DNA from: a virus
DNA: 64,000 nt
Strand: one strand, 5' to 3'
Virus record (IMG/VR): IMGVR_UViG_3300044510_000078
Each line of letters starts with the position of its first letter. The first letter of the stretch is position 1. The position numbers were made by a program. Below, piece by piece: positions 6,001-9,000 of the stretch.

Positions 6001-9000
6001 CATTTTGCGCGCCTTCACGTTGCGCGGCGCGGGGATGGAAAAGGATTTCATCCGGGCAATTTAAGCCCTTTTGTCCGCTATGTCAAGCGTTAAGAGAGCG
6101 GGAGCATCAAATCAAAATCTACACCCCGCAAGCCCGCAGGAAGCGCGCCCGGTCAAATTGCGGATTGAAACCCGCAAACACCGTTGCCAACCCTTCAATG
6201 GCGCGAAGGGTGGCGTTTTCCGCCGCCTTACCCTCGGCGCGGCTGATTTCCAACGCGGCGTTGAGTTCGGCGGCGATTTCAATGAAATGCTTTTTGCTCA
6301 TGGGTGTATTTTAAGATATTTTACTTCCCTGTCAAGCCACCATTTCGATTTCCCCATCCGCCACGGAAAGCAATAGAACTTCACCCCTACGCTTTTCGAC
6401 GAAATACAAACCACGCGCTTTGGCGTTTGGGATATTCGCCGCAAAGGTGGCGTGATAGGTCCGCCCCTTGTGAAAGGTCCACGAAGCCGGAAGGTGTGCC
6501 ATTGAGCGGGTTTGAAGCATTTTGACTTTGTGCATGGATGTATTTTAGGGGATTTTGCGCCCTTGTCAAGCTACCCCACAAAAAACTTGCTCGGCTTATT
6601 GATTCTCACTTTAGGAGTCCTGCCCGCGAGCCGGGGGCTTTCCCTAGATACGCTCTTTGTCCTTGCGGACCGGTGGCAATCTGCACCGTCGAAAAAAGGT
6701 CGGATATGGCGGGATTTGAACCCGCGACATTGCAAATTTGCCCAGCTACATTTCGGACAGTGTGACGTGTTTGCGTTCCCCCTTGCGCACCCGACATCTA
6801 AAGGTCGTCAAGGGGGTTCGGGCCACAAGTGAGAGTTACGCCTGAATTGACCGAGAGTTTTTGGCATTTCTCCCATGTTAAACCCATCACTTTACTTGTG
6901 AACCCTTACCCGCCCGACATTGAAAGCATAAGGCTTTTTTTTCTTCCCGTCAAGTCCCGCCTTTGAAATTGTTTGGGCGCGTATCGCTCTCCCCCTCGCG
7001 GCCTTCCTTATATTGTTTGCGCGGTGGAATCGGCTCACCCGCGTTTGTTCATTTTTTCCGTTCTGGGTTTCGGCTACTCAATACGGGGTCAACTTTCGTT
7101 GGTGGTGCCGCACTTTGGCTTATTCCCGCACACGGTTCAAACGAACGCTAAAACAAAGATAATGTTTTTTTTGTCCCTGTCAATACCGCACTTCAAACAT
7201 CCGTTGCCCGTCGCGCGCCAACCTTCGCCGTCGCCGCGCTCGCGCCCAACGGGGCGGAAAACCAACAGACATTCCTATCGGAATCCCACGCTTGCCAAGT
7301 GAAGCGTCGCCCCTCAAAAGTCAGCACCTTGCGTGTCAGCTTCTTAACATCATCCCACCCGTTAGGGCAATTTACCGTAAGATATTCAAGCCCAACGTCG
7401 GGACGCACGGAATGAATGACGGGGATTTCATCGGGGATGATGGAAGCGGTGGGCATGGATGTATTTTGGGGCTTTTTAAGCCGCCCGTCAAGAGCCTTAT
7501 TCGTTCCATTGCAACTCAACCCCCAACACCAAGCCTAAAAGAAGCAAAGTCATTAGGCGTTGCAATCGCAAGCGTCGCGAAAGCACAAGGGCTGGAAAAG
7601 GCTTCCGATGTTCGCGTCGCCCGTCGCCTCAAAGGAGCGTTCAAAGTCCGCCCGCCCGTCATAAGTGGCGCGGCACGAAATGATTTTCGCGTCAGGCACG
7701 GCATCAAAGAGGGCTTTGAACAAATCCCGGTGCGCGTGCCAACACGCGGCGGCAACGCGCCGCCCCGTATGGCCCCGGCGTCCACCCGGCCCCTTTGAGC
7801 TTTTGACGGTCAAAGTGAACTGAAAACCCTTACCTTGCGGGGCGATATACCGGAAGGCCAAGTTGCCGTGGTAGGCTTGGTTTGCGGTGGCGAGGGCGGC
7901 GTGAAGCTGCGGGGCATTGATGTTACGTGCAATCATAGGATGATGATAAGGTTTTTTGTGATTCTGTCAAATGACGCCCAACTCCCAAACAATGCAATCA
8001 TGCAAAATCGAGCCGTTCGTGCGCTCAATGACGCGAAAAAAGGAATCGCTCTCACTATCGGAAAGTAAGCGGGCTTTGCTTACAGCATCCCGCCGGTTTG
8101 AAAATGAACCCTCGGCGGCACAAAAGCCAAGCAGGAAATCATACCAACGGCCATCAACGGCCATTTTCTGAATAATGAAAGGGGTGTTGTCTTGCATGGA
8201 TACAATTTACTGGGTTTTTCCCGCCTTGTCAAATGTTGGATTATGCCGGTTCATCCAATCCACGGCATCTCGCGCAGAATAGGCAAGGCACACCTGCCCG
8301 TCATTGAAAGTGATTCTGTGTGTCCACACCCTCACGGGCACAACACCCCCGCACAAAACGGGGAAAATCCCTTCCTCAATCGAGGCAACGTTATTTTCCG
8401 TATAGTACATAACGGCAATATACAGAAAATTGCCGAGCTTGTCAAACGTTGGGTGGACTTGCCTTTGCAATCGCGGCGCGGGCTTCGTCCGCGACTTCGG
8501 ACAACTCTGGATTCGCCTCTAGGATGTTCTCTAGTGCCGCGAGCAAGTTAGCGTGTGCATTGCAAGCCCGCACGATAAACTCAGCATTGGCGGCGGGCCG
8601 GGCATAGTGCGTCAACTCGTAATCACCGCACTTAACAAGGGCGATTTGCTCAACACCATCACAGGCTTGGGGACTGTCGGAATCGGCGACGATACGAAGA
8701 TTGTCCAACTCGCCTTCGACGCGCCACGGGCCGGGGGTGTGTTTCATGTTTGTAGTATGCAGGAAATTTCAGGCTTGTCAAGACTTTGAAGGCTTCATTT
8801 GCGCTTTAACCTTGCGCCAATAGGAATCGGTCAAATGCCTTTTGTTTCGCCAGTTCGGGCCGCTATTGAACAAACGCGCAAGAGGCTCGAAATCATTCTC
8901 CCGTAAGGCTTTACGCTCATAACGCTCACAATAAGCCCGCAAAACCCGGATGGAATAGGCCAAGTCCGCGCAATCCTCGTATTTCCCGCCTATTTTATCC

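What the first reader, a model, noticed from the sequence alone, without database searches (positions are those of the whole stretch)
6575..6953. Tandem RNA cassette: a GUCGG rod followed by a GUCGG tRNA-like RNA and a hairpin-rich tail
Seen: one promoter (+1 G6918) drives a rod-like RNA (6803-6918). Seven nt later a tRNA-like RNA (6699-6795) starts with the same GTCGGG, followed by about 120 nt of further hairpins (CGGTG/CACCG, GTCC-GCAA-GGAC, GCTCG/CGAGC). No credible ORF lies on this transcript. Inference: a polycistronic ncRNA precursor processed at the tRNA-like element, as in RNase P/RNase Z punctuation.
Basis: partly seen in the sequence, partly recalled or inferred. Interest (0 to 1): 0.7.

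Follow-up and report, generated by a model that had tools for sequence, protein, structure and literature searches.

The report
Phage early cassette encoding tRNA-like RNA
One promoter in the early-gene array of a large lake-water phage drives a transcript with no gene-like reading frame: a rod-shaped RNA, then an RNA that keeps the outer shell of a proline tRNA but has lost its anticodon arm. It is probably a small-RNA gene, but nothing shows it is made or cut.

Summary
The promoter (-35 at 6953-6948, -10 at 6930-6925) belongs to an array of about 55 sigma-70 cassettes. In about 40 of these an ATG sits exactly 6 nt after the -10. Here GTCGGG takes that slot (G6918).

- **Coding:** no ORF in the unit looks coding. 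All score below all 37 real array ORFs, and none has a homologue.
- **Rod (6803-6918):** it folds better than shuffles (z about -2.7 to -2.95), which ranks in the top 2-3% of background windows.
- **tRNA-like RNA (6699-6795):** tRNA finders do not call it. It has a 7-bp acceptor stem and a perfect T arm. Its 3' third matches tRNA-Pro: 29/33 to a phage tRNA-Pro and 21/21 to Verrucomicrobiota tRNA-Pro(UGG). The anticodon arm is replaced by about 47 nt.
- **Tail (6575-6698):** no more structured than chance.

Two further anticodon-less tRNA shells (9.5 kb and 26.3 kb) and a second GUCGGG rod (5107) make this a family within the phage. Related phages with the same array carry aberrant tRNA-like genes with compensatory T-stem changes.

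No homologue of this cassette and no RNA data were found. Processing by RNase P or RNase Z is plausible but untested, and the function is unknown. My best guess is a tRNA mimic or decoy. The same first-stage pass had already noted the GUCG family on this window.

The parts
6925..6953 (-). Sigma-70-type early promoter: -35 TTGACG (6953-6948), 17-nt A-rich spacer, -10 TATGCT (6930-6925). The predicted +1 is G6918.
   Evidence: It belongs to the array's promoter repeat families. The +1 is inferred from the fixed distance between the -10 and the ATG in about 40 leaderless cassettes.
6803..6918 (-). E2, a 116-nt rod-like RNA. It starts GUCGGGCGGG at +1 and is closed by GUCGGG/CUUGAC, leaving a 3' GACC overhang.
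   Evidence: MFE -41.4, z -2.95; z -2.74, top 2-3% of 206 background windows. It shares GAGAAAUGCC, and the start GUCGGG, with the rod at 5107.
6796..6802 (-). 7-nt spacer UUUAGAU between the rod and the tRNA-like element. No promoter is evident by eye in the sequence upstream of 6795.
   Evidence: Sequence. No -10 or -35 match for a start at 6795.
6699..6795 (-). E3, a 97-nt tRNA-Pro-derived tRNA-like RNA. Acceptor 6789-6795 pairs with 6699-6705. A D-arm-like hairpin lies at 6773-6788, a 47-nt centre at 6726-6772 replaces the anticodon arm, and the T arm is at 6709-6725. The 3' end reads ...CCG-A-CC.
   Evidence: Its 3' 33 nt match phage tRNA-Pro positions 44-76 at 29/33. A 21-nt stretch matches Verrucomicrobiota tRNA-Pro(UGG) at 21/21. 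ARAGORN and Rfam tRNA do not call it.
6692..6697 (-). U6 run one base after the acceptor 3' strand. It may be a terminator or a 3' trailer for trimming.
   Evidence: one of only four T6+ runs on this strand between 4 and 17 kb. The consensus scan does not list it as a terminator.
6575..6691 (-). Tail with three short hairpins and a second U6 (6580-6585), followed by GUGGGG just before the next -35 (6569). Its status is uncertain.
   Evidence: z +1.24. The end motif TTTTTTGTGGG is shared with the non-coding cassette at 11237.

Best explanation
The locus is a non-coding early transcription unit of a phage of about 198 kb. Host sigma-70 RNA polymerase would start at G6918 and make one precursor: a closed rod RNA (E2) followed by a tRNA-like RNA (E3).

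E3 descends from a tRNA-Pro gene. It keeps the acceptor stem, a D-arm-like hairpin and an intact T arm, which together form the 'elbow and acceptor' shell. Its anticodon arm is replaced by an unrelated 47-nt domain, so it cannot decode.

I infer that host tRNA-processing enzymes handle the shell. RNase P would cut at or near U6794|C6793, which releases E2 with a defined 3' end. The CC-U6 trailer would be trimmed, or transcription would stop at the U6.

The products would be stable small RNAs. With the two other anticodon-less tRNA shells and the second GUCGGG rod in the same array, they would act as tRNA mimics or decoys in the phage-host conflict over tRNA, for example by soaking up or misdirecting a tRNA-binding host factor.

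What is shown: the promoter, the lack of a coding-like ORF, the tRNA-Pro ancestry and the family within the phage. What is inferred: transcription, processing, stability and the decoy role.
For: - **Promoter and start.** The promoter is a regular member of an array of about 55 cassettes. GTCGGG sits exactly where about 40 cassettes have their leaderless ATG.
- **GTCG at +1.** It recurs at four of the roughly 13 cassettes without an ATG in that slot (5107, 6918, 11237, 13171). GTCGGG overall is barely enriched in the window (25 against 17.5 expected), so what stands out is its position.
- **No coding signal.** See, and the gap left by gene callers.
- **Rods.** E2 folds at z -2.7 to -2.95. The sister rod E1 at 5107 folds at z -3.7 to -4.2, beyond all 206 background windows.
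- **Shared ends.** E1 and E3 share their first 10 nt (GTCGGGTGCG) and the 3' UCCGAC.
- **tRNA-Pro ancestry of E3.** 29/33 to phage tRNA-Pro positions 44-76. GTCGCGGGTTCAAATCCCGCC matches Verrucomicrobiota tRNA-Pro(UGG) at 21/21; those genes read gtCGGGGCG...CGCCCCGACCA.
- **Acceptor pairing kept.** Against that tRNA, by eye, pair 5 changed from G-C to U-A and pair 6 from C-G to G.U, so pairing survives changes on both strands.
- **More shells in the window.** Two further shells with T loop UUCAAAT and expanded centres lie at 9425-9544 and 26224-26344, each behind its own array promoter.
- **Relatives.** Phages with the same leaderless array (L129, L131, L133) carry aberrant tRNA-like genes. 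The orthologous pair L131:9327-9404 and L133:220-291 keeps the shell, shows two compensatory T-stem pairs, and differs by an indel in the anticodon arm.
- **RNA-conflict genes.** The phage encodes RlaP, a Ro60-fold protein, a SpoU methylase and a Macro domain. Relatives add a CCA-adding-type enzyme and T4 Rnl1.
Against: - No homologue of E2 or E3 was found, so this locus itself has no covariation support. The one other contig that carries it is identical.
- E3's free MFE fold is not the cloverleaf and is not better than shuffles.
- There is an extra C between the T stem and the acceptor, pair 7 is broken, and U8 is missing. RNase P recognition is therefore not assured.
- E2's z-score is matched by 2-3% of arbitrary windows.
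- Apart from the tRNA-derived 14-mers, motif sharing among the non-coding cassettes is at chance level.
- The shell at 9.5 kb has an imperfect acceptor, as expected of decay.
- Nothing ties the RNAs to any target.
Confidence: 0.45

Rival explanations
1. Decayed cassette. The unit is evolutionary debris in a fast-shuffling array: a captured tRNA-Pro gene that lost its anticodon arm, plus a dead payload. It is still transcribed because the promoter module is intact, but it has no function.
For: - tRNA finders reject E3.
- E3 has an extra C, a broken seventh acceptor pair and no U8.
- The 9.5-kb shell has a poor acceptor.
- No conservation outside this phage.
- The tail is unstructured.
- Short-motif sharing is at chance level.
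- Homologues of the flanking genes sit in other contexts in relatives, which fits cassette turnover.
Against: - Three independent shells all keep a perfect or near-perfect T arm and a D-loop GG while losing the same part.
- Acceptor pairing in E3 survives changes on both strands relative to the closest tRNA-Pro.
- GTCG sits precisely at +1 in four cassettes.
- E1 folds far better than background.
- Orthologous aberrant tRNA-like genes in relatives show compensatory T-stem changes.
Confidence: 0.25
2. Y-RNA-like partners of the phage Ro60-fold protein. The GUCGGG rods (E1, E2), and perhaps E3, bind the DUF2828/TROVE-like protein encoded at 44539-46059 through their bulged terminal helix. This would parallel Y RNA, YrlA and the Yrl RNAs that bind Ro60 in bacteria and in Thermus phage phiLo.
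For: - The 506-aa protein folds as Ro60: AF2 pLDDT 90.6, and all 13 top PDB hits are Ro60/TROVE at E around 1e-7, including phage phiLo Ro60.
- E1 and E2 are RNAs of about 115 nt closed by a 5'/3' helix, with a bulge or mismatch at position 7.
- GUCGGGYG loosely resembles the YrlA 5' motif GNCGAAN0-1G (PMC4201824).
- M. smegmatis YrlA and YrlB come from one precursor, and its YrlA is cut by RNase P (PMC4201824).
- Phage phiLo Ro60 binds two phage Yrl RNAs (PMC12135203).
Against: - The RNAs lie about 38-40 kb from the Ro gene, whereas known Y RNAs lie within about 4 kb on the same strand (PMC4201824).
- No YrlA or Y RNA hit in Rfam, even at E up to 10.
- The CGAA core is absent.
- E3 has normal tRNA topology, not the permuted YrlA topology.
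- Another first-stage note places two hairpins in the Ro gene's own leader, the canonical place for a partner RNA. I have not checked that note.
Confidence: 0.12
3. E3 is mainly a 3'-end and termination module. The tRNA-like fold plus U6 would define and stabilise the 3' end of the rod RNA, as RNase P does for MALAT1 through mascRNA. It would also insulate the next cassette from read-through. On this reading E3 has no trans-acting role of its own.
For: - E3 has no promoter of its own and directly follows E2.
- U6 follows the acceptor, and T6+ runs are rare in this part of the array.
- Terminator-like sites are not enriched in the array (6 found against 6.5 expected), so read-through is otherwise likely.
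Against: - The sister rod E1 has no such module.
- The shell at 26.3 kb stands alone directly behind its own promoter, and the one at 9.5 kb about 14 nt behind its own, with no upstream RNA to process.
Confidence: 0.1
4. A small protein is made from the 63-aa ORF 6606-6797 (ATG at the start of E3), or the tRNA-Pro 3' fragment is an integration (att) core.
For: An ATG-initiated 63-codon frame exists. Elements that integrate into tRNA genes carry tRNA 3' halves (established knowledge).
Against: - The ORF has no Shine-Dalgarno sequence and does not start at a transcription start, unlike the about 40 array cassettes that place their ATG there.
- Its codon score is below all 37 real ORFs.
- It has no homologue.
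- Identity to tRNA-Pro stops before the acceptor 3' strand, so the fragment could not rebuild a tRNA.
- None of the 31 ORFs I scanned against Pfam matched an integrase family.
Confidence: 0.05

Closest known systems
M. smegmatis YrlA/YrlB and phage Yrl RNAs (bacterial and phage Y RNAs bound by Ro60)
   Same: These are small non-coding RNAs with a tRNA-like module (T arm, D-loop GG). In M. smegmatis two RNAs come from one precursor, and its YrlA has a 7-bp acceptor stem that RNase P cuts (PMC4201824). Phages encode them alongside a Ro60 homologue (PMC12135203). This phage has a Ro60-fold protein.
   Different: No Rfam YrlA hit, and the CGAA motif is absent. The RNAs lie about 38 kb from the Ro60-fold gene rather than within 4 kb. 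E3 keeps ordinary tRNA topology, whereas YrlA is permuted, with its ends emerging where the anticodon stem would be.
Phage T4 stable RNAs, species 1 and 2 (rnaC, rnaD), in the tRNA cluster (from my own knowledge)
   Same: These are phage-encoded stable small RNAs of unknown function. They are co-transcribed with tRNA-type elements and matured by host tRNA-processing enzymes.
   Different: The T4 RNAs sit inside a cluster of real tRNA genes. Here the unit is a stand-alone cassette in an anti-defence-type early array, and the tRNA-type element cannot decode.
MALAT1-mascRNA, and MHV68 tRNA-miRNA-encoded RNAs (from my own knowledge)
   Same: A tRNA-like structure inside a longer non-coding transcript acts as an RNase P or RNase Z cleavage signal. 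It defines the ends of neighbouring RNAs.
   Different: Those are eukaryotic or herpesviral systems transcribed by Pol II or Pol III. The resemblance is in mechanism only.
Canonical phage tRNA genes, including variants with altered anticodon loops that evade host anticodon nucleases (from my own knowledge)
   Same: Phage-borne and tRNA-derived, expressed early, and found alongside RNA repair genes (RlaP, and ligase in relatives).
   Different: E3 has no 7-nt anticodon loop on a 5-bp stem. ARAGORN does not call it, and Rfam tRNA does not reach even the 17.3 bits of the local tmRNA hit (gathering score 29). It cannot act in translation.
tmRNA
   Same: An acceptor and T-arm shell with the anticodon domain replaced by other RNA. 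The only Rfam hit is to the tmRNA T arm.
   Different: ARAGORN finds no tmRNA. The centre is 47 nt with no pseudoknots or tag ORF, and there is no G3.U70 pair.

Membership tests
tRNA (Rfam RF00005 / ARAGORN) | Detected by covariance model or ARAGORN, with a cloverleaf carrying a 5-bp anticodon stem and 7-nt loop | tested here: not met
   ARAGORN finds only tRNA-Met at 16394-16466. Rfam gathering finds nothing at 6699-6795. At E up to 10, only a 17.3-bit local T-arm hit appears. The centre is 47 nt.
tRNA (Rfam RF00005 / ARAGORN) | 7-bp acceptor stem and a T arm with the UUCRANY loop | tested here: met
   GUCGGGU/AUCCGAC and GCGGG-UUCAAAU-CCCGC. There is an extra 2-3 nt between the T stem and the acceptor.
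YrlA / bacterial Y RNA | Match to the Rfam YrlA or Y RNA models | tested here: not met
   No such hit at E up to 10 in 6200-7300 or 2000-26500, nor near the Ro gene at E up to 5.
YrlA / bacterial Y RNA | Encoded within about 4 kb of a Ro60 gene on the same strand (PMC4201824) | tested here: not met
   The Ro60-fold gene is at 44539-46059 and the cassette at 6575-6953. They share a strand but lie about 38 kb apart.
YrlA / bacterial Y RNA | 5' motif GNCGAAN0-1G (CGAA) in the terminal helix (PMC4201824, PMC12135203) | tested here: not met
   The RNAs start GUCGGGCG or GUCGGGUG, with GG where AA is required.
YrlA / bacterial Y RNA | A Ro60 (TROVE plus vWA) protein in the same genome | tested here: met
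   AF2 model at pLDDT 90.6. All 13 top Foldseek PDB hits are Ro60/TROVE, at E 1e-7 to 2.5e-4.
YrlA / bacterial Y RNA | Binding to Ro60 | not testable with these tools
   No RNA-protein binding tool was available. It needs EMSA or co-purification.
tmRNA | tRNA-like domain plus a tag reading frame and pseudoknots, detected by ARAGORN or Rfam | tested here: not met
   ARAGORN finds no tmRNA. The Rfam tmRNA match covers only model positions 346-363, at 17.3 bits against a gathering score of 47.
RNase P / RNase Z substrate (tRNA-type punctuation) | Coaxial acceptor plus T-arm stack of about 12 bp, with a single-stranded 5' leader and 3' trailer | tested here: inconclusive
   The 7-bp and 5-bp helices are present, with a 7-nt leader and a CC-U6 trailer. 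They are interrupted by 2-3 unpaired nt, and the cloverleaf is 2.3 kcal/mol above the MFE. Cleavage itself was not testable.
Intrinsic terminator | GC-rich hairpin immediately followed by a U run | tested here: inconclusive
   U6 follows the acceptor helix. That helix is long-range, and the consensus scan does not list the site.

The most novel reading that the evidence does not exclude
This phage lineage makes a class of promoter-driven 'tRNA-shell' RNAs. They keep a tRNA's acceptor, D and T parts, have swappable centres in place of the anticodon arm, and come with acceptor-helix-closed rods that share the tRNA-Pro-type ends GU-CGGG...CCGACC. They would act as programmable decoys or adaptors for tRNA-binding machinery, such as anticodon nucleases, RNase P, synthetases, or the phage's own Ro60-fold protein and RNA-repair enzymes. 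That would be an RNA-based anti-defence strategy not yet described.
Probability: 0.2. Interest if true: 0.85.

Novelty: new variant of a known kind. Interest (0 to 1): 0.5.

Why it matters
Phage early regions are searched for protein anti-defence genes, and their RNA genes are mostly overlooked. This array mixes about 40 leaderless mini-genes with cassettes that have no gene-like reading frame. Three of those are tRNAs stripped of the anticodon arm.

If these RNAs are made and stable, they would be a compact natural example of tRNA mimicry by a phage. They would give a direct handle on which host or phage tRNA-binding factor is targeted. The cassette is short, carries its own sigma-70 promoter, and can be tested in a surrogate host. 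If it proves to be debris, it still shows how tRNA genes are captured and eroded in such arrays.

Tried and rejected
**Searches for relatives of the RNA**
- Phage GenBank collection, blastn of 5500-8500: no match.
- Exact 27-mer of E3 in IMG/VR: none.
- Gapped patterns for a GUCGGG...T-arm...CCGAC RNA in IMG/VR and in JGI metagenomes. The hits were almost all tandem tRNA genes (usually a tRNA-Pro after another tRNA) or tRNA-Pro 3' halves. No E3 homologue was recognised, and the window's own copy was not among the rows returned.
- blastn of all non-coding cassettes against 11 related loci: nothing below E = 0.1.

**Searches through neighbouring genes**
- ArdC, the 127-aa neighbour and rIIA as bait in IMG/VR gave only distant loci without this array, or nothing.
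- Homologues of the 87-aa upstream neighbour led to phages with the same array type but no E2 or E3.
- Homologues of the 67-aa downstream neighbour sit behind ordinary coding neighbours.

**Sequencing runs**
- No RNA holder is listed among the 11 lake-water runs.
- Laying four partial holders gave only identical low-coverage fragments, so no variants.
- A second contig of the phage (ENA) is identical across the locus.

**Other checks that led nowhere**
- No whole genome is held for this window.
- The single-sequence AF2 model of the Ro-like protein was useless (pLDDT 41). It was redone with an alignment.
- k-mer sharing among the nine non-coding cassettes: beyond two tRNA-derived 14-mers, it equals that of disjoint coding controls (the first control was flawed by overlapping samples).
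- MAFFT alignment of the three shells mis-registers E3's ends, so I built no covariance model.
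Full report
**Setting**

The window is part of a phage contig of about 198 kb (longest contig 197,734 bp). It was assembled from lake-water metagenomes. It encodes rIIA and rIIB, a DNA ligase, an RlaP nucleotidyltransferase and an ArdC-type anti-restriction protein.

Positions 2.5-26 kb differ from the rest in composition, at 45-58% G+C against about 35%. On the minus strand this stretch holds an array of about 55 sigma-70-type promoter modules (14 in 5-9 kb against 2.9 expected; repeat families). In about 40 modules an ATG lies exactly 6 nt after the -10 hexamer, so the mRNAs would be leaderless. 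No whole genome is held for the window.

**The observation**

The base in the slot where the other cassettes have the A of their ATG is G6918, the first base of GTCGGG.

About 13 promoters have no ATG in that slot. Four of them have GTCG there instead (5107, 6918, 11237, 13171). GTCGGG as such is barely enriched in the window (25 against 17.5 +/- 4.3). The positional coincidence is therefore the real signal.

*Rod E2.* E2 (6803-6918) folds into a rod closed by its own ends, at -41.4 kcal/mol and z = -2.95. A repeat gave z = -2.74. Of 206 background windows of the same length across the array, 4 reach -2.95 and 7 reach -2.5. The fold is suggestive, not exceptional.

*Spacer and tRNA-like element E3.* Seven nt later, with no promoter in between, E3 (6699-6795) starts. 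It has:
- a 7-bp acceptor helix, GUCGGGU/AUCCGAC;
- a hairpin with a GG-containing loop in the D-arm position (6773-6788);
- a 47-nt centre (6726-6772);
- a perfect T arm, GCGGG-UUCAAAU-CCCGC (6709-6725).

The segment folds no better than shuffles (z = +1.24).

*Coding potential.* I trained a codon log-odds score on 37 leaderless ORFs of the array. In leave-one-out scoring the real ORFs score 0.055 or more (mean 0.24). The 63-, 54- and 30-aa ORFs of the cassette score -0.06, -0.08 and +0.04, inside the off-frame distribution. The 63-aa ORF has no homologue among 5.8 billion proteins. blastx against 2052 ORFs of the window and related loci finds nothing. Gene callers left the stretch empty on an identical ENA contig.

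**What E3 is**

ARAGORN and the Rfam tRNA model do not call it. Only the T arm matches, as a local hit of the tmRNA model.

Its 3' 33 nt are 29/33 identical, with one inserted C, to positions 44-76 of a phage tRNA-Pro(UGG). A bacterial contig in one lake run aligns to 6699-6728 and then continues as a tRNA-Pro anticodon arm (loose end at 6728). Searching that arm joined to E3's T arm in species genomes gave seven exact hits. Six are Verrucomicrobiota and one is a Gemmatimonadales MAG.

In six of those seven tRNA-Pro(UGG) genes the sequence reads gtCGGGGCG (or gtCGGGACG) ... GGTCGCGGGTTCAAATCCCGC-CGCCCCG-A-CCA. From this:
- E3 shares 21/21 nt across the T arm and its flanks.
- Its start GU-CGGG equals positions -2 to +4 of such a gene.
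- Its end CCG-A-CC equals positions 70-75.
- Against that tRNA, by eye, acceptor pair 5 changed from G-C to U-A and pair 6 from C-G to G.U, so pairing is kept. Pair 7 is broken.

The 5' part of E3 is not significantly similar to tRNA-Pro by local alignment. A fold that enforces the acceptor, D-like and T helices costs only 2.3 kcal/mol more than the MFE, and it gives the centre a long irregular arm.

E3 is therefore a tRNA-Pro derivative that kept the shell and lost the anticodon arm. If RNase P reads it like its ancestor, the cut would fall at U6794|C6793. A U6 run (6692-6697) follows the CC. Such runs are rare on this strand, with four between 4 and 17 kb.

**A family within the phage**

- The motif GGTTCRANNCC occurs only three times in 64 kb: in E3, at 9436-9446, and in the one true tRNA.
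- The 9.5-kb element (9425-9544) has a tRNA-Leu-type D arm, 18/19 identical to a phage tRNA-Leu. It has the same T loop, an expanded centre and an imperfect acceptor, and it sits behind its own array promoter.
- A third shell at 26224-26344 has a perfect 7-bp acceptor, the same Leu-type D arm, T loop UUCAAAU and a centre of about 70 nt. Its promoter places +1 within a base of the acceptor's first nucleotide.
- The cassette at 5107 gives a 118-nt rod closed by 15 bp with one bulged U. Its z is -3.7 to -4.2, beyond all background windows. Its first 10 nt are identical to E3's, and its last six (UCCGAC) match the 3' end of E3's acceptor strand. It shares GAGAAAUGCC with E2.
- Beyond two tRNA-derived 14-mers, motif sharing among the nine non-coding cassettes equals that of coding controls. 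I do not rely on the shorter motifs.

**Relatives**

No homologue of E2 or E3 was found anywhere. This locus therefore has no covariation evidence of its own.

Homologues of the 87-aa neighbour led to phage contigs with the same promoter-ATG architecture: L129/L130 and L131-L133. These carry normal tRNAs next to aberrant ones:
- a 59-nt element that the Rfam tRNA model scores at 45.7 bits but ARAGORN misses;
- genes for which ARAGORN reports two-letter anticodons;
- further T-loop elements that no tool calls.

One orthologous pair, L131:9327-9404 and L133:220-291, keeps the acceptor, D arm and T loop nearly unchanged. It shows two compensatory T-stem pairs and differs by an indel in the anticodon arm. 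This shows that aberrant tRNA-like genes are maintained in this group of phages. It is only indirect support for E3.

**The Ro60 lead**

The 506-aa DUF2828/DUF7788 protein (44539-46059) has no sequence hit to solved Ro60. With a 41-sequence alignment it models at pLDDT 90.6. Its 13 best PDB matches are all Ro60/TROVE proteins, at E 1e-7 to 2.5e-4 and TM 0.30-0.55 (query-normalised), and they include Thermus phage phiLo Ro60. A SpoU-type RNA methylase and a Macro domain flank it.

Ro60 proteins bind Y RNAs. Bacterial YrlA carries a tRNA-like module. In M. smegmatis YrlA and YrlB come from one precursor, and its YrlA is cut by RNase P (PMC4201824). PhiLo Ro60 binds two phage-encoded Yrl RNAs (PMC12135203).

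Against membership:
- Rfam gives no Y RNA or YrlA hit.
- The CGAA core is absent.
- The RNAs lie 38 kb from the gene instead of within 4 kb.
- E3 has ordinary tRNA topology, not the permuted one.
- Another first-stage note places two hairpins in the Ro gene's own leader. I did not test it.

I keep this as a rival at about 0.12.

**Verdict**

The most likely reading (0.45) is a non-coding early unit that yields a rod RNA and a tRNA-Pro-derived shell RNA. Host tRNA-processing enzymes would handle the shell. The products would act as tRNA mimics or decoys alongside the phage's RNA-conflict genes.

The promoter, the lack of coding signal, the ancestry and the paralogous family are shown. Transcription, cleavage, stability and function are inferred.

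The rivals are a decayed cassette (0.25), Ro60 partner RNAs (0.12), a 3'-end and insulator module (0.10), and a peptide gene or att core (0.05).

It is a new variant of a known kind (phage stable RNAs and tRNA mimics), of moderate interest until RNA ends or homologues are obtained.

Noticed in passing
window 2500-26400, minus strand: An array of about 55 sigma-70 promoter modules (TTGACA, A-rich 16-17-nt spacer, TAnnnT). In about 40 the ATG lies exactly 6 nt after the -10, which would mean mass production of leaderless mRNAs for ORFs of 40-130 aa. Terminator-like sites are not enriched.
   Followed up: partly
window 1-24000 vs 26000-64000: A sharp composition shift within one phage contig: 45-58% G+C in the cassette array against about 35% in the rIIA/ligase/Ro60 part. 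I did not check the junction for misassembly. Four runs hold 99-100% of the sampled words of 4500-13500.
   Followed up: no
window 4990-5107, minus strand: A 118-nt RNA starting at a predicted +1 with GUCGGGUGCG. It is closed by a 15-bp terminal helix with one bulged U. z = -3.7 to -4.2, better than all 206 background windows.
   Followed up: partly
window 9425-9544 and 26224-26344, minus strand: Two tRNA-Leu-type shells (D arm UGGCGGAAU..AGACGC, T loop UUCAAAU) whose anticodon and variable arms are replaced by 45-70 nt. Each has its own array promoter. The 26-kb copy has a perfect 7-bp acceptor and discriminator A. LeuRS does not read the anticodon, so charging is conceivable.
   Followed up: partly
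window 10929-11237, minus strand: A non-coding cassette of about 300 nt that starts GUCGCG. It contains CGCGGGTTCAA (a degenerate T-arm motif) and ends with TTTTTTGTGGG just before the next -35, the same end motif as the 6918 cassette.
   Followed up: partly
window 44539-46059 (with 43030-43542 and 47027-47500), minus strand: The DUF2828/DUF7788 protein models as a Ro60/TROVE plus vWA ring. All 13 top PDB hits are Ro60, and the family has more than 7700 members in metagenomes. It is flanked by a SpoU RNA methylase and a Macro-domain protein.
   Followed up: yes
L131:9220-9900, L133:130-300, L129:9600-9670 and 14590-14662: Related phages with the same leaderless array carry runs of unusual tRNA-like genes. 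These include 6-nt anticodon loops, a 59-nt element lacking the anticodon arm, and several elements ending ...CCACCA that no tool calls. An orthologous pair shows compensatory T-stem changes and a variable anticodon arm.
   Followed up: partly
L043 and L089 (IMG/VR contigs), match sites listed: Two related viral contigs carry a tRNA-Leu-like shell, GTCGGGG...CCCCGAC, with a Leu D arm, a T arm and differing expanded centres, followed by ACUGUUUUUU. Rfam tRNA does not call it. It may be the same class in unrelated phages.
   Followed up: no
window 18178-18425: About 14 or more tandem copies of a 12-nt unit (GACTCCGCACCT and variants) inside the cassette array. It is presumably a short peptide repeat in an ORF.
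   Followed up: no
window 59524-60138, minus strand: A phage-encoded sigma-70-family factor (regions 2 and 4). It may switch transcription away from the host-type early promoters.
   Followed up: no
L254-L260 (species genomes): The tRNA-Pro(UGG) closest to E3 occurs in six Verrucomicrobiota genomes and one Gemmatimonadales genome (58-71% G+C). This is a lead to the host or to the donor of the tRNA.
   Followed up: partly
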